Source: Balamuthia mandrillaris | Taxonomy: Eukaryota | Assembly: GCA_031835245.2 (NCBI GenBank) | Contig: JAVKOQ020000014.1 | Span: forward strand, 1 to 64,000 | Direction: 5' to 3' | Length of the DNA stretch: 64,000 nt | In this document: one piece after another, positions 1-43,220 of the stretch | Layout: each line of letters opens with the position of its first letter | Numbering within the stretch: the first letter of the stretch is position 1 | Translations under genes and position numbers: made by a program | The notes under the pieces: model-generated | What the model saw: the letters and a program-made list of their open reading frames with translations, nothing else | Database searches by the model: none | Told to the model about the DNA's origin: nothing

Positions 1-121
1 CCCGTTGGTTGCACCACCACCGCACTTTAGGGTTTTTATTTTGTTTGTTTGTTTGTTAGTTTGTTTGTTTGTTGGTAGCATTTCGTTGGTTGGTTGGTTT
101 GCATTGTAACTTAAGGCTCAT

Positions 122-3100
122 ATGTTTCCAGTTGCTGCTATTGGTAGCCCAGAGGCCGAAGCTGAGATCCTCAGCAAATTTAACCCCAGCAATCATGCGT
201 TCTTTTTAACCCTTTATCTCTCTTTTCTCTTTTCCTTTTGTCCATCATTGTTATTATGGTTATTGCTGTTGGGGTTATTGGTTTATTTTTTTTGTTTCCT
301 TGTGAGTAACTGAGCCTCTGTGTTTTTCTTTCTACCTACCAACCAACCAACCAACCAACCAACCAACCAACCAACCAACCAACCAACCAACCAACCAACC
401 AACCAACCAGACTCATGGAGAGTACATCTCAGGATAGGTGTCTTGAGCGGTAACACTCGCTTAGCCACACTGCAAGCCTTGCTAAAGGCAAAGCAAGCAG
501 CAGTCAATGCAGCAGCAGCGGCGGCAGCAAGTTCAGCATCGCTATCCCCTGCTGCTGCTGCTGCTGCTTCACTTGGCCTACCTTCATCATCGCAAGAGAG
601 CCCCATGCCTTCTGGTGGGACCATCAACAGCATTCTCTTCACTCCTCCTTCTACTCCACTGAGAACCACAGCTATTGTAGCTGCCTCGCCTACTAGCCCC
701 CCCTCTGCCTCTTCATCAGCTGCTGCTGCTGCTGCTGCTGCTGCCTCTTCTCCTCAGCAAAGGGTGGCAGCAAAGTTGTCGGACAGCGATCTTAACGCGG
801 TGTATCGTTCGGCTAGCGATGTAGTACGGCGTTATCAGCTCGCCGATGAGAACGGCGCATGGTTATCGCCACTTATGCCCATCTACGGTCGATATTTCAA
901 CATTATTCATCTACTGTCACTGCCGGTGCATCAGATTGTGTCCATGGTGGAAGACCCCAACACCAAAGTGAAGCCCCGAGAATGGTCATTTGCAGACACG
1001 TTGCTGAAACTGGCCAATGCCGTGCAACTATCAAAAACTGAGTATGTTCTTCTTTTTATTTATTTGTTTGTTTGTTTGTTTGTTTGTTTGTTTGTTTGTT
1101 TGTTTGTTTTTATATGGCCCTTGGTTATCTGACCTAACTACCTCTCAACTTACTGCTATGTGTATGTGTTGTGTTGTTGCATTGTCAGTGCAATGGATCA
1201 GATTCAAAGCAACAGGGCCTTGAAAGTGGCGCTTGCTGCTGCAGAACATATTTTCGATGAGGCCAAATCAAAGAAAAGCCTACCTCCACGGGAGACGCTC
1301 CCCTATTTTGTGCTCACCAAACAGGATTTGCCAGCAGCTCATGCGAAATCCTTTACACTCAACGCTTTTAGACAAGATCTCTCCCTGGTGGAGCATATGT
1401 CCATCGACGTTATTTCCCAACTGGCAGCAGAGAACCGGGGTCTCATTTCGAAAACCGACTTTCGTCTGCTGCACCCCTTGGCTCCAGCCATCCAGAAGCA
1501 GTTGGTGTTTTATTATTACATTCCCATGGTGGTCAGCCCTCCATCTGAAGTAAATACAGAGCTAAGCAAAACCTTTCTGAGGTTTTGTAGACGCAAGGTC
1601 CGTTTATCATTATCTGTTTGTTTGTTTGTTTGTTTGGTTGGTTGGTTGGTTGGTTGATTGTTTCAATTGGTGGGTGGGTGGGTGGAAGGAAAGTGCTAAC
1701 TCTCGCTTACTTTGGGTGGCTGCAGGCCCAAAACGAGGGAATCATCCAGGAATTGGGTGATATCGTGGCCAATGGCTTACGCTGCCATGGCAGCATCGTT
1801 GAAGGACCCTGGATCGTCAACGGTCTGGAAAATCCACGGTGGAAGTGGCTGGCGCAATCCATTCGCAAGGGTCATTGGGACGTGCTGCATCAGGCCGCTC
1901 TTGGTCTTGACCGTGGCAAAGAAGTCTTGCCGATGGATCCATCGCAACAACAACAACCGTTGGATGCGACTTCCTCCCAGTCCAGCAGCAGCAGCAGCAG
2001 CAGGTTTTATGAGACACCAACTGGAAGTTGGATCCGTAACCTCATTAACGCTGCAGTGTATAGCATTCTGAAGGAGATGCCCTCCTCGGATGAACGGCGC
2101 AACCGCAAAGGACGCGTTTTTCAGGGTTCCTTCACCCGGGAAGAACTGTTGTTAGTATATAGACAACTCCCTCTCGGCCTGCAGAAACTTTTCATGTTAT
2201 TACGGGCCAAAACTATCCAGTATGTTGCTCCTCTTTCGCTTGGTTGCTTGCTTGCTTGCAATGCAAGACATGTTATCCTTGCCACCTCTCTATATTCCCT
2301 TTGCCTGTTTACTCACTCGCTCGCCTCCTTGCTTGCTTGCTTGCTCATAGTGATAGCGCAACACACGAGGAGAATACCCGTTTGCCACCGCTGCGCCAAG
2401 AATGGTTGAACGAGTCATCTTTGGCAGATGCTCTAATGTCAGCTACCCCCTCAAAGCCAACAACGAGCAGCCATCGAACCAAAGTGCAACAAAAGGCGAT
2501 ATTAGCAGGAGGGGAAGAGGAGGAGGAAGAAGAAGAGGAAGAAGGTGAAGAGCAACAACAACAAGAAGAAGAAGCGGCAGTGATGGAGGAAGATCCAGAA
2601 GCCTTCTTATATCCCCCATTGGACGGCCAGCAATTAGAGCAAGCAGCCCGAACGGAAGCGATGGTAGAGAAACAGCATTCCGCCAAGGAAAAGTTGTTCC
2701 AATACCGTATGAAGCTAATCCATTATTGTCCTCCCTTTACGGTGCAAGAAGCCTTGGCAGAGAACGCGTTGAACTTTGCCAGTCTGAAATCCTTGAAAGG
2801 CATGCGCATTTCTACCAGCATCAACCTTTCTGGACCTTTGGAGGATGTCAAGCGGTTGATGCTTGCTGTTCGTCGCTGCTTGGTGAAGGAAGCGCAACAA
2901 CATAATACTCCGCTGGAGTTGGATCCTTTGGATAGAAAGCTCTGGAAGACACGCATTCGTCATCCGGTTCGTTCTCAGCTGGAGCGAGTGTGGCCGCACA
3001 TCACACTGGAAAAATCCAGCAAACCTGAGCGACGGCGAAGCAAAAGCAAAAGCAAAAGCAGCAGCAGCAGCAGCAGCAGCAGCAAAAGCAAGAACAAGAG

Positions 3101-3393
3101 TAAAGCTAGCAGCAGCTCTGCTACCACTAAAGTGCCTGCAGACCAGTTATACAATGCAGCTGCTATTGTGCATGTAAAGGACTTGCCTGAGCTGGATGCT
3201 ATATCACCACTCGCGGCTGATTGGTAAGTTGTTTGTTTATTTGTTTGTTTGTTTGTTTCATAGGAAAGGAACAATTCACCACTCTCTACCAACCTCCTCC
3301 CATTTACTCGCTTTTTAACTTTTTGTCTTTCTTTCTCTCTCTTTTTCTCTTTCTTTCTCTCTCTTTATTTCTCTCTCTTTATTTCTCTCTCTT

Positions 3394-3431
<38 letters not shown>

Positions 3432-5172
3432 TCTCTCTCTCTCTTTCTCTTTCTCTTTCTGTCATTCTCCAGGGATTTACAATATGTGGATCAATTGGAT
3501 AACAAAACATGGCAGCCTATCCATACCACCTCTACCCAAGTCGGCAATACAGAAATGAAGAGGGAGAAGCATCGTGCCAAACGCCATTCTGTTAGGCACC
3601 AAAAAGCCATGGACAAGCTGGCTCAGAAGAGCAGTGAGCTGCAGCAAGACATCTCTGTCGATGCCAGCCCCTGTATAGACTTGACAGAGTTTTTTGGGCC
3701 TGACCTTCGCTCTTTTGCTGCTGTAGACCAGAGTAGTTTGGATGATGCGGAGTTTAATCTCGATGATGGCAGTATCCTGGGTGGTGGTGGTGGTGGTGGT
3801 GGTGGTGGTGGAAGTGGTAGTGGAAATGCTACCTCAGCTGGTGTGTTCGTAGACACAATGGACCTAGCAGCAACAGCAGAAACAGCGCAGCAACAACCAA
3901 GCTCAACAAAGCGCCCAAGAGCTATGTCCTCTTCTGCCTCTTCCTCTCCTGTGACAAGCAAGAAGCCACGGAAAGCGGATGATGATCAACTGTTGTTGGA
4001 AAAAAAGAAAAAAAAGCAACAACAGAAGCAGAAACAGAAGGACAAGGAGAAGCAGAAGCAGAAGCAGAAGCAACAGCAGAAAAAGAAGAAGAAGGAGAAA
4101 GAGAAGGAGAAGGAGAAGCAGAAGCAGAAGCAGAAGCAAAAGCAACAACAGAAAAAGAAAGAGAAGGAGAAGGAGAAGGAACAGGAGAAGGAGAAGCAGA
4201 AACAACAGCAGAAAAAGAAACAAAAGAAGACTGCCACCGAGTCAGAGGAGTCCGAAGCCTCATCCGCATCAGAGGCATCAGATAAGTCGGAGGAGTTTGA
4301 GGCCTCATCTGAGTCAGAGGCATCAGATAAGTCAGTGGAGTCAGGCAAGTCAGAGGAAGAGGAGGAAGAGGAGGAAGAGAAGGAGGAGGAGGAGGAGGAA
4401 GAACCCAAGAAGACAGAGAAGCTTGCAACTTCCACCAAGTCTACTGCTCCTAGCATCAGCAGTAACAGCAGCAGCAGCAGCAGCTCCTCAGATGATGATG
4501 ATGATGAGATTGCCAGTCTCATGAGCCTTGATATCACTAATGTAGCAGGTAAGAGGCGCTCACGTTTGGTGTTACTTACAACAACTCACATATGCACTAA
4601 CCACACTTGCTGGCATGCATGTATACATGCATGCATGCAGATACACGTGATGGTGCTGGAGATAGCAAAACAAAGTCAGATATTCCCAACCAGACAGCTC
4701 CTTCAACAGCTGCGATGGTGGATAAAGATATTGATGATTCCATACTGAGTGTTGGAATGTATGTATTTTTATTTCATTTGTCCATTCGAGTTTGGTTCTC
4801 TATCTGTCCGTCTGTCTGTCCATCTGTCCGTCAGTTTTTCTACTAGCTTTGTGTTTTGTCTCTCTTTTGTTGGTTTACTCGTTTTCTGTTTGTTTGTTTG
4901 TTTGTTTGTTTGTTTGTTTGTTTGTTTGTTTGTTTGTCCTCTTCCTCGTGGTGTTTTTTTTTGGGCTTTTCAGTTGCAATTCTATGCTTATACAGTGGCG
5001 CTCCGTCGGAGCGGCAGCTTTTTAACTCCAGTTTTGTTCTTATTATTATTTGTATTTCTTGTTGGTTGTCTTTTTGGTGTTGATTGTTTAGCGCTCCAGC
5101 GGAGCGCTATCTTTTTGGAGTTTGTTTGCACTGTTATGCCTTTGTGATTTCTCATTCAAGCCTTACTGATTT

Positions 5173-5204
<32 letters not shown>

Positions 5205-5623
5205 CTAGTATCAAAAAAACCTGCTAATGGCCCAGAGAAACAAGCAGCAGCAGCAGCAGCACAAAATGAAGAAGAGGAGGAGGAGGAAGAAGAACAAGAA
5301 GAAGAAGAAGAAGAAGAAGAAGAAGAAGAAGAAAAAGAAAAAGAAAAAGAAGAAGAAAAAGAAAAAGAAGAACCAAAAGCAGCAGAAGCAGAAGCTGGCG
5401 AAAAAGAAGCAGAAAAACAGAAAGAAGAGGAAAACACAAGTGCTACTAAGAGCCCTAGCAGCAAATCTACGCGCAAGGCTGCAGCTGCTGCTCAAAAGGC
5501 TATTGCTACTGCTGCTGCCAAATCATCTTTGCAAAGAGCTGCTGCTGCCGTGGCTGCCTCATCTAGCAGTAGCAGCAGAAAAGGAGCCACAACTCGTTCA
5601 CAACGCTGTAACTCAGGTAGGTG
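122..5623 (+). CDS. Large multi-exon orphan protein (about 8 exons) with Ala/Ser/Glu/Lys low-complexity tracts; no recognisable domain
   Basis: Consecutive + strand ORFs (320-1132, 1160-1657, 1618-2409, 2244-3227, 3486-4748, 4607-4846 and an acidic exon at ~5209-5623). They are separated by GT..AG introns filled with (AACC)n, (GTTT)n, (GGTT)n, (GCTT)n or (CT)n. Start and end are approximate. Confidence 0.6.
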
Positions 5624-6024
5624 ATCTCTTCCTCTTTTTCGTTATATTAGTTTGGTTGTTTGAGAGAAAGCTTGAGTTAGTTGATTGGTTGGTTGGTCGG
5701 TGGCAATAATACTGGTTAAACAATGGATGGATGGATGGATGGATGGATGGATGGATAGATGGATGGATGGTAGAACAGTGATGGTGGTGGAGGCAGTGAT
5801 GGTGATGGTAAGAGTTGTTAAGCATAGCATGGTGAATAAGGGAGTGAGTGACATGACAAACAAGCAAAAACAGTAGTATTGTTGCAAATAATAATACTAA
5901 TAGAAAGACAACAAGAAATGTAAACAAACAAAGAATGAAAAGGCAATTATAAAAATGAACCTCCTGCTACTGCCAGATGTAAAAAGGAAAGAAAGAAAGA
6001 AAAAAAGAAAGAAAGAAAGAAAAA

Positions 6025-6060
<36 letters not shown>

Positions 6061-6366
6061 AATGATAAAGAATGGAAAGGAGAGGAAAAACAAAGCAAGT
6101 CTCCAAATAGTTCTCATTATTTATTATTATCTATATCTTCATTCATCCAGACTAGACCTACTAACTTCTTGTTTCTTTTGTTTCCATTTGTTGTTTGTGT
6201 TTGTGTTTGTGTCTACAATTTGCTTGTTTAACAACAACAACAAACAGAAGATAATATATCTATTCCTGCTGTCTTTGACCAACCATCATCACTAAATAAC
6301 AACAACAACAACAACAAAGAGGTAGCAATAGCAACAGCAGCAGCAACAGAAGAGGATGATGAAGTA

Positions 6367-8297
6367 ATGATTGTCTCAATATCATCATCCTCATCCTCAT
6401 CAGCAACATCTTTCAATCATCACTTTGCTCCCTATCAGGCTCTCAACACTCAGTCATTTGTTCGCAAGCAGTTTTTGGATCATTATTTGTTAAAAACACC
6501 ACCACCAGCTACTGTTGTTGCTTCTGCTCCTGTTATTGTTGTTGATAATCCTGCAGAGCTCTTTTCACCTCCTCCATTTTCTGCATCACCCTTTTCATCC
6601 ACTACTACCACCATTACTCCCACTTCATCATTTACTCAATCACAACCACAACAACTACAACAACAACAACAACTACAACAACAATCATTAGAAAGGACGA
6701 CCTCTTCTTCTTCTTCTTTTTCTTCTTCTTCTGCTTTTTCTTCTTCTTCTTCTTCTTCTTGTTCTCCTTCTTCTCCTCCTCCTTCTTCTTCTTCTTTTCT
6801 CCCTTCTTCTCCTCCTTTTTCTTCTTCTTCTTCATCTTCTTCATCTTCTTCTTCTTCTTCTTCTTCTTTGTGTTCTTCTTCTTCTTCTTCTTCTTCTTCT
6901 TTTTCTTTTTCTTCTTTTTCTTCTTCTTCTGCTTTTTCTTCTTCTTCTTCTTCTTCAAATTCAGAGTCCTTTGTCTTTGAGAACAATGATGGTGATGTTA
7001 TGGATAGCGGTGATGACAGTAATTTATCATCATCATCATCATCATCATCATCCTCATTAAGAGGAAGAAGAGGAGGAGTAGAAACAGATATAGATGCAAC
7101 AAGCAAAACAACAACTCCACCAACATTGATAGATTTGTTGTTGTTAACTGAAGACGAAGAAGAAGATGAAGAAGAACAAAAAGAAGAAAAACAAGGAAAA
7201 AAGAGAAAAATAGAGAAACAACAAAATAGAGCTAGAACAAAGGATGATACTGATGATAATACTACACATGACAGCAGTAGTAGTAATGGTGGTGGTGATG
7301 GTGCAGGAAGACGTCTTTCTCGTGCTATCACATTGATGAACCGTTTGACAGAAGAGCGATGGACAGAGTTGACGGCAGTGACGAGTTGATGGAGCCCTTC
7401 TACCCAACGTAAACATGCCTGGACTTTGACCATCTGGGAAGCACATTGTGCGCATCATAAATGTTTGCCAGCTCTTCCTTTGAATCTCCAACGTCATAAC
7501 GTAGGAGCCTTTGTTCAATGGTTGATTTTGGATGTGGGTTATGCCTTGAGCTCTGTGCGTGATGTCATGATTGCCAGTCTTTATCGTTTGCATGATGAAA
7601 GTATCCAACAACAGCTTGACTCCCTTTCTGCATCCTCCTCCTTCTCCTCTTCCTCCTCCTCCTCCTCCTCCTCCTCTGTTTCCTCCATGATCTCTTCGTC
7701 TCCAGCATCATCATCACCTACCACTTCTCCTCCTCCTTCTCCTTTATCCAGAACCATTCTTGGTGATGGTGTCACTCGAGTAGCCACAACAGGAGCGACA
7801 GGACGCACTACAGCATTGACGGCAACCTCAGACCATGCTTACTTGTTGTTGCTAAAAAACCAAATGGATGCCATCAAAGATCAAGTCAAACAGGCCATTC
7901 GGCATTGCAAAAGAGCCAAACCCTCCTGTTCTAGCAAACAATTGTGCAAAGACGCATGTTTGTTAGATGATGTCTTACATATCATCGCATCCACTCCAGA
8001 TGGACTGGTGAGCAAAGCTGGTGAAGCCAGTTGTTGGTTACACAGTGTTTGTACTGGTGCCAGAGCCATTACAGCTGCAAACATTCGTTTGGGTGATATT
8101 GTGGCATTTCGACCTAAACTTTCATCCTCCTCTTCCAACAACAACAACAACAACAACAATGGCAACCTCAGCTGCCATCACCAAGAGGATGCATTTTCTG
8201 CTCCTCCTCTTTATTTCCTTTCGTTGCGCCAACAAGTCACCAAAGGAATACCAAATCATTGGAATCATGTCGTTACATTTGAAGGTTATTTAACACC

Positions 8298-8331
<34 letters not shown>

Positions 8332-9322
8332 TCATCACGAGGATCATCTTCTTCACCATCACCATCATCATCATCACCACTTAGCACCGTCACTGCTACG
8401 ACCTCTGCTGCCGCCGCTGCCACCACCGCCGCCGCCACATCAACAACATCAACACCAAGCATTTGTCTTGGAGATTTTATTTACTGGTTAAACAAGCATC
8501 TGTTATGCAAGCATGGTTTGGATTTGCGCGAGTTTCACAACTGGCGCTTAACGGATGCACAAAAACAAACATCATTATGGGGATGGTCATGCGATACTTT
8601 AAATGCCAAGTTGCAAGATCGGGCTGTTCGGGCTGGTTATCCTGAAGGATTGTTTTCCTTTCACTCCTTGCGTGCTGGCTTCCTTTGCACTGCCTTGATC
8701 TTGGAGGGACTGCAGGAAGGTCACAGTCAGAACAATGTACTGGATACTACTGCCCTTATTGCAGGTTGGGTACCTCGTGGTAGATCCCAGCAAGTCTACG
8801 TCAAGGATACATTAAAACGTGCTATTGTGGCCAATCGCTTGGTCAGCAATGTTACTACTCATCCTCATTCTTCTTCTTCTTCTTCTTCTTCTTCTTCGTC
8901 ATCTTCATCCTCTGTTGCAACTACCACTGCTGATTATCATCCTCCTCGACATTGCGGTTTGTTACTGCTCATCTGATTTTTGTTTTTTCTTTTGTTTTTT
9001 CTTTGGCTGGGCTAGCTGCCTGACCAGCAGTAATAAACCACCACCACCACCACCACCACCACCACCACCACCACCATTACCACTTGATGGACTGACTTGC
9101 TCTCTTTTTGGTTCTTTTCATCCTCACTCCCTTGCATGCATACAGTTATTGCTCCAGAGCTAGTTACCAAAGAAGCATTTCACAATCTATCCCCAGATGC
9201 TTTGCAACAATCCAACTGGTCTGCAGATACCAACTATCAGAGTTTTATTCATGCTGTTCGCCAACGGTTTGTTTGTGTGTTGTTTGTTTGTTTTGTTTGC
9301 ATAGTATCCACCACCATCACCA

Positions 9323-9374
<52 letters not shown>

Positions 9375-10565
9375 TTATTTATCTATCCAGTCAGTCATGG
9401 CTTGTTTGTTTGCTTGCTTGCTTGCATTCAAAAATGCACCCTTAGACCTAGCGCTCAGCTAGAACGCACAGGTTTATTGTGGCAGCAGCAACATTCATAG
9501 TCTAAACAATAATTGTTATGATTGGTCTTGGTTCATTTGTTTTTCTTTTGACATTCACTCACACTTTGTTTTTTGTCTCTTTTCCCTTTTTCTTTCTTTC
9601 CCTCTTTCTTTCTCTCGCTTTCTCTTTCTCTTTCTCTTTCTCTTGTTCTTTCTTTCTTTCTCGCTTTCTTTTTCTCTCTTCTTCTTCGTTTACACTGCTT
9701 CTTTAGGTGGTTCATGAAACGAACAGATTTGCCAACCAAAGATCAACAAATACGATTTTATCACTCCTTGTGGCTTGAATGTTGTACCGCTTGGGTAGAA
9801 AATCATCCAGATGAGTTTGATAAGGATGTGCTAGCTGAAGCTGCAGCCACCTATGAGGCCAAAAACAAATCTCCTCTTCGTTGGCCCAATATTCATCGCC
9901 AGCTGTGCCGTCAACACATCTCTGGCATTCTACAAAGCTTTTTCAGTGGCTTGAATGAGCTGGTGGATGAGTTTGTAGCTCCTATACTTCCCAAGTTGGT
10001 CAATGGATCGCCCATTCACAAAGCATTCCTCACCCCTCGTCAAGAGCAATCATCTTCCTCACTTGCTTCTCTCGATGATGATGATGACAAGAGTCCTGAC
10101 TCAAAAAAACAAACACCACGACGACAACGACTTCGCAGAGCACTTCAGCGACAACAATTGTTATGCAGTCGACTCAAATATCGCAAGAATGGCCATCGGC
10201 AACGGATCGCTTGGCAGGCACCAGAAATCCGTAGACTTGTCACTTGGCGCTTGCGTGATGAATGGTCTTGGTTGGAGATTGCCAAACACTTGCCTACCCA
10301 ACGTCGAACCAACAATGATTGCTATGATAAATGGCGCAATCTCCTCACAGAATTCTCCAACAATCTGGACGCTTTGAAGGCCAAATACTTGGTGGCCCAT
10401 GATGAGGACTTTGACAAATCGGATAATGATGACAATGACAACACTTCCTCCCCATCATCATCTCCTACTTCTACTACCACTACAGTTATATCCATCTTGG
10501 ATGAAGAGGAAGAGACAGAGGAGAATGATGATGATGATGATGATATTATGATTATATCTTGTTAG
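6367..10565 (+). CDS. Tyrosine recombinase fused to a C-terminal Myb/SANT domain; exons ~6367-8956, 9146-9266, 9707-10565; one in-frame TGA at 7387-7389
   Basis: Catalytic motifs: CTGAR (R, 8062), VTKG (K, 8242), FHSLRAG (H 8662, R 8671), IAGW (W 8767), QVYV (Y 8797). Core-binding-like segment WSPSTQRKHAWTLTIWEAHC lies upstream. Introns 8957-9145 and 9267-9706 are GT..AG and phase-compatible (3570 nt spliced). C-terminal IAWQAPEIRRLV..WSWLEIAKHLPTQRRTNNDCYDKWRNL is Myb-like. The frame is also open upstream of 6367, so the true start may be further 5'. Confidence 0.85.
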
Positions 10566-11480
10566 ATTATATAGGTATTCCTATACAAAAATTGAAAAAA
10601 TTGCTACTTTGACCCACTTTATCCGTTAGACTTATAGACTTAGAGTTTTATAGAATGGACCATGGGGAGTTGAATGCCGTAGGTTCTGAGTACCCGCCCC
10701 TAACCCCTAGATAAGAAGCACTAATTGCAACAGTTTGTTCTGTTAACAAAGCTTCTTGAAGCAATGAAGAAGAAGATGAAGAAAAAGATGAAGAAGATGA
10801 AGAAGATGAAGAAAATGTAGAGATACTGTCTTCTGGTTGTTGCATACCTATTATAATGTTTTAAAATAATAAGAAACACAACAAATAACAAAAACAATAA
10901 AAACAACACTTTAGCAACAAACCGTTGGAAAAAAGATGGCTGTTAAAGCTCACAATCAGCACTACAAGATTTAAAAGTGCTCTGGTGTGTGGTTCTTTCT
11001 TCTTTCTTTTTGTTTTTCGCGAAAATCGAGTAGCATTTGTGCAAAATTTGTGCACAATACAGTTTTAGTGCTTTGTTCTACCAAAAATATTCTAACTCTG
11101 TAACACTTTATTAATACCTAACATATAATATATCTTCTTATAGCCCTTGAGTTGCTCTTTAAGATGATACTATTATTATATTTTAAAAGCTGATTCTTAG
11201 GTCAAAATCAAGCATAGAACCCTAACCTTTTCCCTTATTTATTTATTCAATATTAATGAAATACCTTTTACACATTCATTTATTCATTAATTATCTATTT
11301 ATCTATTCATTTATCAGTTTTACAAACATTTTCTATTATTTTAAAATACAAAATTATGTATAAAATTAATTACTTAGTCATAAAATATTTTTACTCTTTG
11401 TAAATAAGCTTAAAATTCCCTTTTTTCAATCATTTTGGCTTAGAGAATGTTGAAATTTTTTCTAAGTTTGAAATTTTTGC

Positions 11481-11520
11481 TATGGAACCAGGGAACCAAG
11501 CAGGTTCCCTTGGTTCCATA
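11481..11520. repeat. Near-perfect inverted repeat TATGGAACCAGGGAACC-aagca-GGTTCCCTTGGTTCCATA
   Basis: 17/18-bp arms with one extra T and a 5-bp spacer; a GC-rich island in very AT-rich DNA. Confidence 0.85.
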
Positions 11521-11704
11521 TTTTTGCACCTCAATAACTTTGTTACAACTTAATGAAACACCAAACTGTTTGTTATAGCAAATACTTCAAGTATTGTTCT
11601 TCCTTTGGACATATTTATCTTTATGATATACCTTATACTTGTCCAGCAAAGGGTAGCCTTAAAACAAGGCTGATTCCTATACTTACTTTTTCTCTTTTTT
11701 AACA

Positions 11705-12082
11705 TCCTCATTCCCTTGCAGTTATTGCCCCAGAGTTAGTTATCAAAGAGGCTTTTCACAATCTATCCTCAGATGCTTTGCAACAATCCAAGTGGTCTAT
11801 AGATATCAACTATCAAAGTGTTATCTATATTATTTGCCAATGGTTTGTTTGTTTGTTTTTTTTTCCTCTGCTTGTTGTTGTTTGTTTCTTTGTTTCAAAA
11901 TGCACCCTTAGACCCAGCACTCAGCTAAAACACACAGGTTCATTGTAGCAACAACAATATTCATGGTCTAAACAATAATTGTTACAATTAATGTTAGTCT
12001 ATTTGTTCTTTTTTTAACATTCATTCACACTTTGTTTTTGTCTCTTTCTCTCTCTCTTTCTCTCTCTTTCTCTCTCTTTTTC

Positions 12083-12113
<31 letters not shown>

Positions 12114-12660
12114 CTCTCTCTCTCTTTCTTTCTCTTTCTCTCTCTCTCTCTCTCTTTCTTTCTCTTTTTCTCTCTCTTATTCTTCTATTACACTTTCTTT
12201 AGTTTCATGAAACAAACAAATTTACCAACCAAAGATCAACAAATACAATTTTATCACTCCTTGTGGCTTGAATATTGTACTGTTTGGGTAGAAAATCATC
12301 TAGATGAGTTTGATAAGGATGTGCTAGTTGAAGCTGCAGCAACTTATGAGGCCAAAAACAAATCTCCTCTTCATTGGCCCAAACACTTGCCTACCCAACA
12401 CCAAACCAACAATGATTGCTACGATGAATGGTCTTAGTTGCAGATTGCCAAACACTTGCCTACCCAACGCCAAACCAACAATGATTGCCATGACAAATGG
12501 CGCAATCTCCTTACTGCTTTGAAAGACAAATACTTGGTGGCCCATGATGAGGACTTTGACAAACTGGATGATGACAATGCTTCCTCCCCATCATCTCCTA
12601 CTTCTACTACCACTATAATCATATTCATCTTGGATGAAGAGGAAGAGACAGAGGAAGTCA
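11705..12660 (+). pseudogene. Decayed partial copy of the YR-Myb gene 3' end (exon 2, intron, exon 3 with an internal deletion and a duplicated Myb segment)
   Basis: Colinear with ~9120-10520 (e.g. 12207-12380 matches 9714-9887 with 12 substitutions). Intron sequence is retained, with stops and indels. Confidence 0.9.
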
Positions 12661-12769
12661 GTCACTTACTTCAGAGATAAGGGTTGATCCCTTTATTTTA
12701 TCTTATCTATTAATAATAAACGTCCTTATATTATTTAAAAAAGCATAACATAACAAAGCACAAAGACTA

Positions 12770-13660
12770 TTAATTAACTTCTTTACAAGAATTCTCAAGC
12801 ATTTCATCTGAAGAAGTTAAAGTTTGTTCATTCAAACAGATATCAATAGTAGCATTTTCTTCATCTTTCACTTTTTGTCTCAGCATCTTTCTCAACAAGT
12901 CAAATCTTTTAATCAACAAGAACTTGAAAAACATGGTTAATAACAAAATAAAAATGAAACAAAAAATACAAACTTGAACTATCAAAACAGGACCAAAGCC
13001 AATAGTGGAAACTATAATACCAACTGCCAGAAAACCAAACATCTTGCTCCAATGTTGTGATTCTTTGTGTTTCTCTTTAGAGTCATTATCAATATTATCA
13101 TCATTATCATTGTGATAGAAAAGAATGAAATTGCTTGTGACAAAGGTTATTGTTCCAATCATAATAACTGCTACCACTACAGTTACAAGCATCCATACTC
13201 CCAATAGTATCTCTCCCTTTGTAGTACAAAAACACAGGGTTAGTTGTGTTTCATTTTTGCTTTGGTTTAATTGAATTCAGTAAGGGAAGATCGTTTGGTT
13301 TTTTTAGTAAACAATTAACATACCACTAGTACAGCAGTAAAAGAGCAGCTGGCAAGTGCATGCAGCATAAACAATTGGAACAATAAAGTGCAAGTGGCCA
13401 TCAAGCATAAAACGCTGAAGTAAAAACTTAGGCCTTTTATCAAAAGGTAGCTGGCAACAATGAGACCCAACAAGTTAAGTGACTGTTGAGAATCAGAACA
13501 CAAAAAAGTGAGAAGAATCAAAGATAATAAACATAAGAAAACTTACAATATAGACAAAGAGAAGCTTTTTGGCACCCCAGACTTGTTGCTGGAAGTCCTC
13601 TTTAACTGGTTGAGCTTGGTTGAGCAACATTCTCGGCTGTACCTAGTTGCAAAGAGTTTA
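12770..13660 (-). CDS. Putative multi-exon membrane protein, possibly decayed
   Basis: Hydrophobic ORF segments at 12770-13204 and 13315-13521 are separated by an intron-like stretch. CpG-poor; no family recognised. Confidence 0.35.
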
Positions 13661-14490
13661 TTTCGTATACAGCTGAGCCAGATAAACTTGCGGCTGAAAA
13701 CAGAATCGATAAAAGAGGTGTTTGTGGTTCGTGTGAGGAAAAAGCAAAAAAGGGTGAATTCACGCCTTTTTGTGTTGCAGGGAACTTCGCGTCTCTCAAA
13801 AATGACCACGAGGCAGAACCTGACGAAACGGGACAATCCAGGGCAATAGGATAATAATAAATCCCTAACCAAACAGCTTTTTAGACTATTTGAACCCGGC
13901 CCGCAGAGATCAAGACAAAACCAAGATAACATGTCACACTTATCCCCTCTGTCTCTGAGGGATATGTTCATGGCTTCGCAATACGCTGTCTCTAACTTTT
14001 GAAACTGAAACTTGGGAAACCAATGATTCCCAACTTTAAGTTGTCGATGAACAAAAAGAAGAGATCACGGAGGCTTGTTGCAAGATAGGTCGCAATTAGA
14101 TAAGGTCCGAAGGGCAATATCAGCAATGGTGTCCACCTCACGGATACCCAGCCAGGGGTTTGAAAAGTTCCCACGCACCACCACTGGATCCTACCACAGA
14201 TGATCTTGCTTCTGGCCCCCTGATGAGAAACTGCCCATGGCGTCTCTACACCCTGGGGGAGTCGCATTTTGCGGGTCATCCATAGACTTGGTCCCACCAG
14301 AGGTCTCCCCTCTGGTAGCGGAGTGACAGATAGTGGCCGAGGAGGAAAACCCAGCAAATGTTCCGTTCTTCAAACGCGTGCGTAATACTAATTAATATCT
14401 CATTTATAATCCTTCTTGCCTCGAGGATGAGAGAACGTGAACCAGCGTTAGTCCGCTCAACGCCCTCTATCCTTATTGTTGCAAACAACA

Positions 14491-17018
<2,528 letters not shown>

Positions 17019-30550: not shown

Positions 30551-32067
30551 ATGACGGTTCGGAGGGGGTGGCTGCTGCTGGTGTTGCTGGCCTGCACCAG
30601 CGCTTTGCTGGGTGGCATCCACCTCGTGGGGCAGGGTGCGATCGCTGACAATGAACTTGAAGGTGATGTCGTTCAGCGAGAATTACCGCGGGAAGCTCCT
30701 CAAATGAAGATCAGTGTGCTTGACCAAGGGAAGCGGCTGCTTTGGCTGAGCGGGATACAAGATAAGCTCGAAGGTTCGGCCTACCACTTTCTAGTTCTCC
30801 TCCCTTCTTTTATAACTCGGCGTGGTTCTCCTCGCTCTCTTCTCTGTCTTTCTCACTCCTCTATTTCTCGCGATCCTTTTTTTACCAATGCTTAAACCAC
30901 AACAAGGAACAACAAAGTCAAAATACCTCGAATCCAGTGACTTTTATGTTCAGAGTTATCTGGTGGGTCTTCTTTCGGCCAGAGAGAAGGCTCCTTCTGT
31001 GAAACCGGTGCTCATTCTGCAAGGCGACTGGCAAGGAAGAGAGGACTTCCTCCACACCGTCAAAAAGCTTGGCGGAGTTGTTTGGTTCCACAAGCTGTCG
31101 TTTGAGGAGGAGCTGCGCAAGCACAAAGGCAAGTGGCCTCAGGTTGATAACATGTGGGGCTCATTCTTGAAAGTGGACTTACCTCTCATCATGAATGAGA
31201 TTGCACCACTCTTAGGTAATTTGTGCCCATGAATTCATCATTTAACCTCCCATCTCTCTCTCTCTCTCTCTCTTTCTCTCATTACTTCCTCATTTTTCCT
31301 TCAGATTCTTACAAGAGTTTCATAAGAGGAAAATGTGGACAAGAACTATATTCTTTGGACAGATGCTGACGTGATGTTTGAGAAAGACCTGAACTCCAAC
31401 AGCCTCCCCAAGCCAAGACTGTTCAGCGTGGCGCCGGATGCAGCCTTTGATGGCCGACCAGAGAACTTTGGCGTGGTTTACACCAATGTCTCTGCTTATG
31501 CGTCGGTCTTTCCACAGGTTAACATCTCTTCTCTCTCTCTCTCTCACTTTCTATGCTTCTTTAATTCTTAACTGTTTCTACTTATCTTTCTTTGGCTTTA
31601 AGGTGATCGAACATGCAAACAGCAGGAGCTGGCATTATGATATTGCGGACCAAGCGCTGCTGAACGAGGTATTCCAGTCTACCGCTCTTATCTCCCATCT
31701 CCCTAATACGTACAACTACCGGGTCTATTGGGGAAGACCAAAACCTCTCTTATGGAGTCCAGCCTTGCCCCCAGCCATCATTCATTTTCACGGACCCAAA
31801 CCAGAGTTTGCGATCTGTGTTGTGAACGAGCTGAGAGCCCAAGAGCTTTTAGCAACAACAGAAAGCAAGAAGAGCAAGAGGAAGACGAAGGATGAGGAGG
31901 AAGGACAAACGTTGGACGAACAGATCCTGGGCAAGTGCGGAGGACGCCTTGATATTTTGCAGCTGGTGCGTTGGGGGTTCGAAAGGGATGGGGGAGAGTA
32001 TTGGGATGAAGTGGTTGCAAAGTATAGAAGCTATGTTCAGCGTTTAGCATCTAAAAGGAAGTGGTGA
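30551..32067 (+). CDS. Type II membrane GT-A fold glycosyltransferase (GT8-like), paralog 1
   Basis: N-terminal TM; YILWTDADVMF (DxD), DQALLN, YNYRVYWG, IIHFHGPKP; four exons. Confidence 0.8.
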
Positions 32068-32621
32068 TTCAAACCTTCTCTTGTCCTTCATTTCTTTCTT
32101 TCTTTGTTTAACTTTTGAACTGATATCAGTGCAAAAAAACACGAGGAGAGAGAGGGGGAAGAGGTTGAGTAAGAGGAGGTGGCAGGAAGGAACGAGCCCC
32201 AATCTACTTCTAAATATGTGAGTATGGTCCTTGCTCATGGGTACCAACTGAATTTCGTTCATCCTCCCCGTTCCCAGCAGTGTCTTTCCAGATGACAGAC
32301 CAAACCTTCAACTGGTGCTCAAGCAACATTCGGTACGAGAGGACTTCCGCGTAGGCTTTCACTTTTAGAGGCCAGAAACTCTTCCTCCTCTCACCAAAAA
32401 GATCTTGTTGTTGCCAAAGGCGAACATCGTGTCCTCCGCAACCACCACAAAACGCGGAGGAGTACCGTGACTTGGGGAAGGTGAGCTCTTGCACCACGTT
32501 GCGAACGTGACCACAGAGATTCCGCGCCTGGTATTGTTTTGCATGATTGGCATACGTTACATCGCTTTCATACGACACATTCTCAACATTGTTTCGCGTT
32601 CATAAAAAACATAAAGAAGAA

Positions 32622-39850: not shown

Positions 39851-39880
39851 TGTTGAACTCACATCCATCATCATTCCTGT

Positions 39881-41308
39881 TTATATCACAATACCAATCC
39901 GTTGCACATAGCTTCGGTATTTTGCGACCACTTCATCCCAATACTCTCCTCCATCCCTCTCAAACCCCCACATGGCCAACCGCAAGATATTCAACTGCCC
40001 CCCACACCTCTTTATCAACTCTCCCTCCTCCTCTTCCTGCTGCTTTCTCTCCGATGCTGCCGCTCTCATGGCTCTCATCTCTTTCACCACACAAGAGGCG
40101 AATTCTGGTTTGACCGCATGAAAGTGAATGATGGCGGGTTCAAGTGCTTGAGACCAGAAGAGCGGTTGCGGTCTTCCCCAATAGACCCGGTAGTTATACG
40201 TGTTGGGGAGAGGGGAGATGAAGTTGCCGTTTGCACCCCATTCGAAAAAGTCCAAGAAGACGCCTTGGTCTGCCACATCATAGAACCAGCCTTTTGCGTT
40301 GGCATGCGCTTGCAGCTGGTTGTTTTGTGAGGCCAACCACCCATGCATGAAGAAAGAAGCAACGCAAGGGAAAGAGGTTACCTCTTGGGAGACGGAAGCG
40401 TAGGCAGACACGTTGAGGTAGAAGACGCCAGCGTTCTCAGGCACACCGTTGAAGCCCGCATCGGGGGCCATGCTGAAGAACCTCGGTTTGGGCAGGCTGA
40501 TGGAGTTGAGGTCTTTCTGGAAGATCACGTCCGAGTCTGTCCACAGCACGTAGTCCATGTCCACTTCCTCCGGGTCTTTGTGAAGGTTCACAGAGAACTG
40601 TTCGTTATGAAACGGAAGGGGTGAGAAGGAAGGAAGGCAGGAAGAGTACCAAATAACAGTGCAACTTCGTCCATGATCAGGTGCACGTCCACTTTCAAGA
40701 GGGAGCCCCACATCCCATCGATGTGAGGGGCCGTGCCATTCTGCAGTCTGAGCTGCTGCTCGAACGAAAGCTTATGAAAGACCACCGTCGCTCCAAGCTC
40801 TTTGACCCTGTTCAGAAACGAGTCTCTACCTCTCCAGTCGCCTTGAAGCACAAGCAGGGGCAGCATGGAGGGAGCGTTCTCTGTGGCAGAGAGCAAGGCC
40901 ACCAGGTAGCTCCGTAGGTAAAAGTCACTGGTCTCAACGAACTTGGACTTGGAGCCGTCTGGTTTGTTGCCAGAGGAAGAAGCGGGGCGAGAGGATAGCA
41001 TAAACCAGTAAAGTCAGCTTCAAAGATGGAAAGAGAAGAAACAACAAGGAGGAAGCATTAGGACCAAAAGTTTTGTCTTGCAAGCCGCTCACCCAAAGCA
41101 GTTTCTTCGCCTTGAGAAGCTCGTCCCTTCGTTCAAAGCCCACTGTCCCATCACCATCCATCTCTCCTGCCGCGTGACGCCGCTGTTCCGCCGCACCCTC
41201 CTCGCCGGCCTTGTTTAACGAACGTGTTGCCAGGCCAGCGAGGAAACCCAGGATTGTGCATAGGCAAACGACCATCCCCACGAACAGCCACCGCTGCATC
41301 AGGCCCAT
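39881..41308 (-). CDS. GT8-like glycosyltransferase, paralog 2
   Basis: YVLWTDSDVIF, DQGVF, YNYRVYWG, IIHFHAVKP; C-terminus near-identical to paralog 1 (WGFERDGGEYWDEVVAKYRSYVQR). Confidence 0.8.
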
Positions 41309-41491
41309 CGTTCTTGTCTGCTTTCTTCTCTCCTTTTCTGTTGTTGAATGAAACGTCACCCTCTATACAGGACGTCCTGGAAGAAAACGAAACTCAGGTT
41401 TATCCATCTTACACGAGACGACCACCTCTTGGGGGAAGAGGGAAGGCATGGTAAAGGCAAGGAACAAAAGGAAACTTGGTCATTGTGATCT

Positions 41492-42991
41492 TCATTCCAA
41501 CCTTGTTAGTGCCTTTATGTATCTTCGATACTCATCGCCCACCTCATCCCAATACTCTCCTCCGTCCCGCTCGAATCCCCAGAGCACCAGCTCCAGGTCG
41601 CCTGAGCGACCCCCACACTTGCCCAAGATATTCCCGTGGTTCAGCTCTTTCGTTTTCTCCTTCTTCTTGACTTTTCGCAGCTCATGTACAGCACATACCG
41701 AAAACTCGGGCTTGGGTCCTTGAAAGTGAAGGATGCTGGGAGCCAAAGGTTGAGACCAGAAGAGAGCCTGAGGTCTTCCCCAATGGACTTTATAGCTGAA
41801 AGTGTTCGGCAGGTACGAGATTAAGCTGGTGTTGCCAAACAACTCCTTGAAAAGCGTGTCAGCTGACGGCGGTGTAACGTGCCAGGTCTTGCTGTTAGCG
41901 TATGCTATCACCTGTTTTTGCATCATGCCATTAAAAAAGAAGGAGACGAAGGAGGAGAAGAACAAGTACAAGAACAAGTGGAAGTAGAAGTAGAAGAAGA
42001 TAAACAACACTTCATTTTAAGTATGTTACCCACCTCTGGAAAGACGAAGGTGTAAGCACTGACATTAATGTATGTCACCCCAAAGTCCTCTGGCTTTCCA
42101 TCGAAAGCAGCTGCGGGGGGCAAGCTGAAGAGCCTTGGTTTAGCGATGCAGTTGGCGTGGAGGTCTTTTTCGAACATCACGTCAGCGTCTGTCCAGAGAA
42201 CGTAGTTCATGTCCACAGTCTCTTTGTCTTGCTCATGAGCGGTTTAATTCAGTTTGGAGTAAGTGAGAGCAAGAGGAGTTTTGGAAGGCTCTACATCAGG
42301 AAGCTTTACCAATCAAAGTAGCAATCTTCTCCATGATGAAGGGCAAGTCCATTTTCAAGAACGAACACGAAAGGTTGTTGGTCTGAGGGTGCTTGAATCT
42401 ATGCTTCTGCAACTCCTCCTCGAAGGATAGTTTATGTGATAATACCACTCCGCCTAATTGTTCAACAGTGTTGATGAAAACTTCTCTTCCGTCCCAATCG
42501 CCTTGAACGATGACCACCGGTAGCACCGACGGCGCCTTTGCCCTGGCAGACTGAAGCGCCACAAGGTAGCTGCGAAGATGAACGTCACTGGATCCATCAA
42601 CAGAGGTCCTTGATGTTCCTTCTTGACAGACGTGGTTATATCCAAGCGTGAACAGAGCAAAACCAAACCATTGGGAGAGATGAATTACAGAGAACAAGGA
42701 TAACAAAGGAGGGAATATACCGTCCACTTTGGCTTGTAAACCGCAGAGCCACAAAAGCCTTTTAGGTTTGAGCAACTCTGCCTTTTTCTTCTGTGGTGCT
42801 TCCCTCCAGTTGCTTCGCGTAATCTTTGGTCTGGACCTACCATCCTGAAGAGCAAGGATCAGCGCCCAGCGCCCCTCCTGCAGCCGTTCTTCTCCACAAG
42901 TCTTGGAGACTTCCACGCCGACAAGGAAACCGACGTACAAACAGACGCTCGCCAACAACCCAACCAGCAGGGACTGGCATGCACTGGGCAT
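41492..42991 (-). CDS. GT8-like glycosyltransferase, paralog 3
   Basis: YVLWTDADVMF, FSYKVHWG, ILHFQGPKP, WGFERDGGEYWDEV; exon layout similar to paralogs 1 and 2. Confidence 0.78.
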
Positions 42992-43220
42992 TATTGTTCT
43001 TCTTTGATCTCGACGGGTACTTGCCCGATCGGGTTTTTCCTTTTCAATATATCGGAGTTTTAAAAAACGAATTTATTCCTGGAAAAAATTGTCGACATAA
43101 ATTAGCATCCAATCATTAATCATATGTACTTACTTCCAATAAAATTTCAAACAGTGCAATTTCTTAATTTAAGAAACAGCAAGAAACGAACTGCAAGAGA
43201 ACTTTTCAAGTTCGCGCACC

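What the first reader, a model, noticed from the sequence alone, without database searches (positions are those of the whole stretch)
1..13600. A 13-kb block may be one large cargo-carrying YR element
Seen: the orphan gene (122-5623) and the YR-Myb gene are co-oriented and share intron microsatellites ((GTTT)n, (GCTT)n and related tetramers). Host introns beyond 14.4 kb mostly carry (CT)n, (CTT)n or (CTCTGCT)n instead. The block has no housekeeping gene, has long CpG-poor stretches, lacks the TGTCGACA motif of host intergenic regions and contains a decayed second YR copy. Inference: a large mobile unit (analogous to fungal Starships) or an insertion hotspot, with the right boundary between ~10.7 and ~14.4 kb.
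Basis: inference. Interest (0 to 1): 0.7.

Follow-up and report, generated by a model that had tools for sequence, protein, structure and literature searches.

The report
Telomere-seeking recombinase transposon in an amoeba
The block is a pile of repeated elements, led by a high-copy unit of at least 10.7 kb whose DNA cut-and-rejoin gene belongs to a widespread family of single-celled eukaryotes that sits beside host-type telomere repeats, so it is likely a jumping gene that homes to chromosome ends.

Summary
Partly confirmed, and reinterpreted. The DNA is Balamuthia mandrillaris-like (named protein hits). Both the orphan gene and the tyrosine-recombinase (YR)-Myb gene are multi-copy, with no depth drop between them. 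The unit ends sharply at 10,709 in a telomere-repeat remnant, not at 13.6 kb. To its right lie three truncated older repeats (10,710-12,654), then single-copy DNA. The YR is Cre-like with all catalytic residues; this copy has a private stop. It belongs to a family of 333 clusters (E<=1e-10) that includes Monocercomonoides and ciliate-code members. 29 of 43 metagenome loci carry telomere tracts (0 of 860 shuffles): TTGGGG with ciliate code, TTAGGG otherwise. Some form head-to-tail arrays or run into long telomere tracts. The window's right end shares their 15-bp terminal motif. Best reading: an RT-free, telomere-targeted DNA transposon, a Crypton in the broad sense that works like Leishmania TATE. 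It is not a Starship. Not shown: the left end, movement, circles, Myb binding to telomere DNA, a chromosome-end position here, and per-copy linkage of the orphan gene. Ten literature searches found no description of the family.

The parts
1..10709 (+). High-copy unit: orphan gene plus YR-Myb gene. Right end mapped; left end at or before position 1, not mapped
   Evidence: All 21 full depth bins over 1-10437 are at least 26 times single-copy depth in X1; step at 10700-10710
1..3 (+). CCC, possibly the inner edge of a distal telomere tract (inference only)
   Evidence: Distal ends of L001 and L003 pass into the tract at GGG; no direct evidence here
122..5623 (+). Orphan gene, about 1,350-1,400 aa, low-complexity C-terminal half. 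Exons 411-1041, 1189-1597, 1726-2219, 2351-3223, 3473-4548, 4641-4758 are open; first exon (122-194) and last exon (5209-5623) are inferred
   Evidence: 1133-aa run identical to named protein P0029; spliced joints in X7 contigs; no family or fold hit
5624..6247 (+). Spacer or intron between the genes, with branch point at about 6160 and acceptor at 6246-6247; no telomere-type end motif
   Evidence: depth 63-133 times single copy in X1, 0.9-5 times in X14
6248..10565 (+). Tyrosine recombinase-Myb gene, exons 6248-8956, 9146-9266, 9446-9471, 9727-10565 (1230 codons; first exon unknown)
   Evidence: same exon joins in named proteins P0003 and P0004
7387..7389 (+). In-frame stop private to this copy, a CpG-type change
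   Evidence: 27 of 27 X1 contigs, 1 of 1 in X7 and 1 of 1 in X14 carry a sense codon
8062..8799 (+). YR catalytic set R (8062), K (8242), H (8662), R (8671), W (8767), Y (8797)
   Evidence: invariant or near-invariant in 59 family members; family model matches Cre
10194..10346 (+). Myb/SANT-type DNA-binding domain
   Evidence: PF00249 E 0.0005 here; 38 of 59 family members
10690..10709 (-). Right terminus: 15-bp family motif (GTT-RGG-N6-WAC on the G strand) overlapping a degenerate telomere-repeat remnant
   Evidence: other copies end in two repeats plus CCTA, then a different flank (X4)
10710..11227 (+). Repeat B, left-truncated here, ending in a telomere-repeat remnant; lacks the family motif
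   Evidence: Contigs with other sequence before 10710 (X4: 2, X16: 3) and a different flank behind 11228
11228..11679 (+). Repeat C, AT-rich, with a 40-nt hairpin at about 11481-11520, ending in a telomere-repeat remnant in other copies
   Evidence: X16 contigs of depth 574 and 235 stop at 11677 with repeat letters behind; table 5c
11681..12654 (+). Decayed 3' fragment of an older YR-Myb copy, truncated on both sides
12655..13600 (-). Mostly single-copy, CpG-poor host-side DNA with a membrane-protein-like ORF remnant (12770-13276); not part of the element
   Evidence: Single-copy depth from 12923; CpG o/e 0.12; a second allele in X1 stops aligning left of 12716 (record 4)

Best explanation
Window 1-10,709 is a high-copy unit with a Cre-like recombinase-Myb gene and a telomere-repeat remnant at its right end, and it is likely one copy of a DNA transposon that inserts, without reverse transcriptase, into telomere repeats at chromosome ends. 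Shown: high copy number, the sharp right end, the repeat remnant, the catalytic residues, and the family's link to host-type telomere tracts in other protists. Inferred: the recombinase would excise or copy the unit as a circle and recombine a 15-bp site, one arm of which is a telomere repeat, with the innermost repeats of a telomere. That would leave 1-7 repeats on the inner side and the telomere on the outer side, always in one orientation. The Myb domain would help find the repeats (untested). In this amoeba the inner neighbours are cut at arbitrary points, so rounds of end breakage, telomerase healing and new insertion likely built the pile at 10.7-12.65 kb, oldest piece innermost, with the chromosome end to the left. 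The orphan gene likely travels in the unit as an accessory gene (about 70%). This copy's recombinase is interrupted by a stop and shows CpG decay, so it would move only with enzyme from other copies.
For: Copy number: median summed depth against single-copy DNA is 56x (orphan), 98x (spacer) and 180x (YR) in X1; 2x, 3x and 5.6x in X14. End: depth step at 10700-10710, an X16 contig of depth 824 stops at 10706, and other copies show repeat letters then other flanks. Two named gene models of a second YR family read through the same kind of end (P0017, P0018). Host telomere is TTAGGG (10.1101/2025.02.25.640156, passage). Enzyme. Family: 333 clusters at E<=1e-10, Monocercomonoides members. Telomere tracts of 14 nt or more in 29 of 43 loci against 0 of 860 shuffles. 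TTGGGG goes with in-frame TAA/TAG only (5 of 5 such loci checked). TTAGGG goes with stop-free standard-code matches (L001, L003, L008, L010, L042). Six contigs hold two different YR families head to tail on one strand, split by short tracts; L001 and L003 run into 118 and 93 nt of telomere repeat at the contig end. The terminal motif is in 13 of 15 ends examined and in the window's right end; window background 6 of 176. Polarity here: 3 of 3 tract joints whose kind was shown, and the window's 3 junctions, continue on the same strand.
Against: The left end was not seen, and no long telomere tract is in the window; the read tool filters human-like repeats, so this is not testable there. Summed contig depth is no copy number, and in X14 several orphan and spacer bins are at or below single-copy level (0.1-0.9x). 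None of the 10 orphan accessions is adjacent to any YR accession listed, though the annotation is fragmentary. The Myb's best solved match is GT-1 trihelix (E 0.002); telomere binders TBP1 and TRF2 score lower (E 0.11-1.1). Most tract-bearing loci (23 of 29) are ciliate-code contigs that form one clade and appear to be one sample series. Of the 13 other DNA clusters only 5 have a full tract. Shuffles do not control for telomere tracts in random eukaryotic contigs. Repeats B and C lack the terminal motif. Two named models join a YR directly to part of a host gene (P0017, P0024), which fits internal insertion as well. In Balamuthia and L010 the gene points toward the inner end, the opposite of the other loci.
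Confidence: 0.62

Rival explanations
1. The elements carry a short telomere-type tract as part of their own end and insert at internal sites, often into each other, so the pile is a nested internal hotspot whose left halves lie before position 1.
For: Uninterrupted versions of repeat B exist (loose ends before 10710 and 11228). YR ends are joined to parts of host genes in P0017 and P0024. A second allele continues with other sequence left of 12716. Junction tracts here are only 1.5-2.5 repeats.
Against: All junctions with known orientation are on one strand. Relatives run into long terminal tracts (L001, L003). No common target sequence or duplication at the 5 flanks seen.
Confidence: 0.2
2. 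The orphan is not an accessory gene of the unit: it is either a separate repeat that sits next to the YR in only some copies, or the 5' half of one fused orphan-YR gene.
For: Orphan depth is about a third of YR depth. No adjacent accessions. No relative of the orphan in 43 family loci. For fusion: a GT donor at 5617 is in phase with the acceptor at 6248, and the YR's first exon is unknown.
Against: The spacer is high-copy in X1 and has no end motif. Left truncation explains the depth gradient. No fused protein of 913-2605 aa was found (weak). No 5616-6248 joint among the 15 of 23 joints shown.
Confidence: 0.2
3. The units are passive subtelomeric repeats spread by break-induced replication from short telomere seeds, and the recombinase is not the agent.
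For: B, C and a second site in B (11147) end at telomere-like seeds without the family motif. This copy's gene is broken.
Against: Three Balamuthia YR families at 41-52% identity keep the catalytic set. The terminal motif is conserved from ciliate-code loci to this amoeba. Ciliate-code arrays mix families in different orders with exact ends.
Confidence: 0.08
4. The whole 13.6-kb block is one Starship-like cargo element.
For: CpG depletion runs to about 13.6 kb. Starship Captains also have a Cre-like fold, and the Atlas model shows TM 0.54 to a DUF3435 cluster.
Against: Depth steps at 10.7, 11.2, 11.7 and about 12.7 kb. 0 of 59 members match DUF3435. The YR is the last gene, not the first.
Confidence: 0.03

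Closest known systems
TATE (telomere-associated transposable element) of Leishmania braziliensis (PMC6681497, PMC2696322; passages)
   Same: YR-encoding, tandem clusters at chromosome ends, inserted at a fixed position in the GGGTTA repeat.
   Different: TATE is a retroelement with Gag, RT and RNase H and split direct repeats. Here no RT was found in the block or in 13 proteins scanned, the genes keep their introns, and the YR carries a Myb domain ('Myb' does not occur in PMC6681497).
Crypton DNA transposons in the broad sense, including CryptonF-1_cRei and microsatellite-targeting CryptonV (PMC3212892, PMC9977147, PMC13465315, PMC8869645; passages)
   Same: Eukaryotic DNA element with a YR, introns, an extra C-terminal DNA-binding domain, an optional second gene, and a terminus that matches its target. 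Some CryptonV families insert in microsatellites.
   Different: No GCR1_C, NDC10_II or DUF3504 match in 59 members; Myb instead. Target is the telomere repeat, with polar arrays. CryptonV sequences (Repbase Reports) were not available, so kinship to CryptonV is untested.
Telomere-associated YRs of endogenous nimaviruses (PMC10871703; passages)
   Same: YR-mediated insertion into the host telomere repeat, with concatemers or episomes.
   Different: Those are large viruses whose YRs have arm-binding and C2H2 domains. Here the units are 3-11 kb with no viral genes found, and no relative was found in IMG/VR. No sequence comparison was made.
Fungal Starships (PMC10104507; passages)
   Same: Cre-like YR fold; terminus homologous to target; can carry other genes.
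   Different: No DUF3435, YR not at the head of the element, one accessory gene, telomere target.
Yeast Y' elements and Drosophila HeT-A/TART arrays (recalled; HeT-A/TART seen only as abstract)
   Same: Polar head-to-tail arrays at chromosome ends, with truncated inner members.
   Different: Y' encodes a helicase and spreads by homologous recombination; HeT-A/TART are retrotransposons. Neither uses a YR.

Membership tests
Crypton (broad sense) | Encodes a tyrosine recombinase with R-H-R-Y catalytic residues | tested here: met
   Cre is the best fold match, E 1.4e-5 (model of family member P0008)
Crypton (broad sense) | No reverse transcriptase; DNA element that keeps introns | tested here: met
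   No RT family in 11 block exons/ORFs or 13 family and locus proteins; no intron-skipping joint listed for DNA run X1; 3.1-3.4-kb units hold one recognisable ORF. DNA left of position 1 not seen
Crypton (broad sense) | Short direct repeats at both ends matching the target | tested here: inconclusive
   Met in relatives (direct telomere tracts at both ends of L012, L013, L015, L016, L019, L020, L028, L034); left end of the window unit not seen
Crypton (broad sense) | Excision or circular intermediate | not testable with these tools
   L002 has 155-bp identical ends, a circle or a tandem array; not decisive
CryptonF / CryptonA | GCR1_C or NDC10_II domain / DUF3504 | tested here: not met
   0 of 59 members at E<=0.01
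CryptonV | YR lineage membership and microsatellite target | not testable with these tools
   Only a one-sentence description and a reference were seen; no sequences on hand
Starship | DUF3435 Captain | tested here: not met
   0 of 59; fold similarity only
Starship | Captain leads the element with cargo behind it | tested here: not met
   YR is the last gene, ending 144 bp before the mapped end
TATE / DIRS-type YR retroelement | Gag, RT and RNase H ORFs | tested here: not met
TATE / DIRS-type YR retroelement | Tandem clusters in telomere hexamers | tested here: inconclusive
   Met in relatives; in the window only a repeat remnant and same-strand stacking
Telomere-binding (telobox) Myb | Closest to TRF/TBP1-type Myb and binds TTAGGG | tested here: inconclusive
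   GT-1 and c-Myb rank above TBP1 and TRF2 with the profile; TBP1 scores 14.5 bits for P0008, above any single c-Myb repeat shown; binding untested

The most novel reading that the evidence does not exclude
An undescribed, widespread lineage of RT-free recombinase-Myb DNA transposons homes to whatever telomere repeat its protist host uses (amoebae, ciliates, oxymonads), by a lox-like site with one arm supplied by the telomere, and builds polar arrays at chromosome ends. In Balamuthia one family has grown to 10.7 kb with a second gene, and repeated breakage, healing and insertion make these elements the main builders of subtelomeres.
Probability: 0.5. Interest if true: 0.82.

Novelty: new variant of a known kind. 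Interest (0 to 1): 0.7.

Why it matters
Telomere-targeted mobile elements are known as retroelements (TATE, TRAS/SART) and as large viruses. A small single-gene DNA transposon that does this across distant protists was not found in ten searches. It would give a simple, testable site-specific recombinase for telomere repeats, show how target choice follows the host repeat, and explain part of the poorly annotated repeat content and chromosome-end turnover of an amoeba with over a hundred chromosomes.

Tried and rejected
No whole genome was held, so copies could not be aligned; read-set contigs, named proteins and metagenome relatives were used instead. The first Pfam call had a frame slip and was repeated. 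The repeat finder returned only low-complexity families. Raw RNA run X19 (about 3% read) gave no real cover on either gene or on the host gene, so it says nothing on expression. Run X12 (organism B) had one contig at 9720-9932. No longer or fused YR protein was found (weak). No family relative in viral or prokaryotic contigs. The orphan had no hit in Pfam, PHROGs, PDB (low-complexity hits only), the Atlas or the 43 loci; its structure job never finished. A telobox assignment for the Myb was not supported over other Myb types. The tree is the quick version, mostly unresolved; the ciliate-code members form one clade, so one change of repeat type is no proof of co-evolution (28 rows, 11 of 26 ciliate-code loci and 12 of 17 others given, loci without a readable ORF dropped). 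Locus-tag spacing of three named YR records fits the same relative position on consecutive contigs, but this is only a hint and was not used. TGTCGACA absence and shared intron microsatellites were rejected as evidence. A Helitron-type CTAG end was considered and rejected: no fixed T follows, and no Rep/helicase family was found. Three look-ups in earlier findings returned nothing.
Full report
1. Setting. No genome was held. The only close homologues of the YR exon were five Balamuthia mandrillaris proteins, and the orphan matches named B. mandrillaris proteins, one over an identical run of 1133 aa. The host is therefore taken to be this species. Its telomere repeat is TTAGGG and its TEs are said to await annotation (10.1101/2025.02.25.640156, passages).

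2. The observation. The two genes, the CpG depletion and the decayed second copy are real. CpG observed/expected is 0.47 over 1-10710, 0.10-0.21 over 10711-13600 and 0.77 beyond 14.5 kb. The second copy lost 11 of 13 CpG against 30 of 232 other C/G sites, which fits methylation-driven decay (inference). The motif absence is not significant (P=0.11), and the tetramer microsatellites belong mostly to the orphan.

3. Copy number and boundaries. Laid on 1-14900, run X1 gives median summed depth of 56 times single-copy over the orphan, 98 over the spacer and 180 over the YR; run X14, another sample, gives 2, 3 and 5.6. These sums overcount and are not copy numbers, and X14 has bins at single-copy level in the orphan and spacer. 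At finer scale depth falls from 35,689 to 738 to 32 across 10,700, and an X16 contig of depth 824 stops at 10706. Other copies continue with telomere-repeat letters and then a different flank (X4, table 5c). Right of the end lie repeat B (10710-11227), repeat C (to 11679) and the old YR fragment (11681-12654). B and C also end in telomere-repeat letters in other copies, and B exists uninterrupted elsewhere. Depth is single-copy from 12,923, and a second allele in X1 and the X14 contig stop aligning left of 12716 and 12964. The left end was not seen. Three of three tract joints whose kind was displayed continue on the same strand; two more (11227-9962, 11677-9498) were listed without kind.

4. 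The genes. The YR has R, K, H-x-x-R, W and Y, conserved in 59 members. A model of the intact relative P0008 (mean pLDDT 79) matches Cre best (E 1.4e-5). The stop at 7387 is private to this copy. At least three YR-Myb families exist in the species, one with 17 cluster members. Contigs of X7 skip orphan introns at GT..AG and cover YR exons, so some copies are likely transcribed. The orphan has no recognisable family or fold. Its link to the YR rests on continuous depth and on the lack of an end motif in the spacer. Against it, no listed orphan accession is next to a listed YR accession. A fused gene is possible by splice phase and untested.

5. The family. A profile found 552 clusters at E<=0.001, 333 at 1e-10 and 159 at 1e-30. 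Of 10 looked up, 2 are Monocercomonoides exilis proteins, one with 5 cluster members, and 8 have no organism. 38 of 59 carry Myb; none matches DUF3435, DUF3504 or GCR1_C. Of 43 metagenome loci, 29 hold a telomere tract of 14 nt or more, against 0 of 860 shuffles. 23 of the 29 have TTGGGG; the 5 of these checked read only with ciliate code. Six have TTAGGG, in 5 of the 13 non-ciliate DNA clusters; most negatives are short contigs. Eight ciliate-code contigs show 2.9-3.2-kb units between direct tracts. Six hold two different families head to tail on one strand, and first units join varied AT-rich flanks. L001 with L005 gives a whole unit: flank, three repeats, 3.3 kb, then a long tract to the contig end. 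L002 is a 3.4-kb circle or tandem unit. On the G strand 13 of 15 hand-picked inner ends read TT-RGG-N6-WAC, mostly as a 15-bp imperfect palindrome with the telomere repeat as one arm. The window's right end reads the same; window background is 6 of 176. So the window's right end is the inner end, and the chromosome end would be to the left.

6. Mechanism. Shown: enzyme class, ends, tracts, polarity, host-matched repeat. Inferred from YR biology and the Crypton model (PMC3212892, PMC9977147, passages): a circle, recombination with the innermost telomere repeats, and fixed orientation. Inferred for this locus: breakage and healing between insertions. The Myb's role is open, since GT-1 and c-Myb rank above telomere binders, and the ciliate-code clade has a different recognition helix. 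The internal-nest rival cannot be excluded without the left end.

7. Known systems and novelty. It works like TATE (PMC6681497, PMC2696322, passages) and the nimavirus YRs (PMC10871703, passages), but has no RT and no viral genes. It is a Crypton in the broad sense (PMC13465315, passages). Microsatellite-targeting CryptonV is in print (PMC8869645, passage; PMC5753468, passages), and its sequences could not be compared. It is not a Starship (PMC10104507, passages). Ten searches (listings and abstract starts) showed no description of a YR-Myb telomere family. Repbase, subscription papers and all supplements were not seen and may hold one. Two unchecked earlier notes describe telomere-side YR elements in other genomes; kinship was not tested.

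8. Verdict. Observation partly confirmed; interpretation partly supported. New variant of a known kind; interest 0.7.

Noticed in passing
window 195-196: The in-phase donor position of the orphan's first intron reads AT, not GT; either a second lesion in this copy or a different first exon.
   Followed up: partly
window 4996-5110: Two short GC-rich hairpins in the orphan's last intron; a small exon here could fix the phase mismatch between 4758 and 5209.
   Followed up: no
window 11481-11520: A 40-nt hairpin in repeat C; contigs in X1 and X7 (depth 181) show an opposite-strand joint 11520-11638.
   Followed up: no
window 30800-32070, 39880-41360, 41490-43070: Three related host genes, 70-80% alike in DNA, one on + and two on -; glycosyltransferase-like by eye, not scanned.
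   Followed up: no
P0017, P0024, P0002, P0025: Public gene models fuse a YR-Myb to part of a Rap1GAP or DEAD-box gene, or to a truncated YR of another family; their names hide the element.
   Followed up: partly
L003 1-15046: YR-Myb gene 7.7 kb from a terminal TTAGGG tract among long minisatellites; may be another large member.
   Followed up: no
L002 1-3567: 3412-bp circular or tandem unit with an N-terminal CxxC..CxxxC exon like that of P0008 and a degenerate 17-nt tract.
   Followed up: partly
L011-L036: About ten ciliate-code YR-Myb families in mixed tandem arrays between TTGGGG tracts; whether these are somatic or germline ends is unknown.
   Followed up: partly
P0009-P0011: Three unrelated 50-aa proteins are filed in the P0001 cluster, a clustering artefact.
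   Followed up: no
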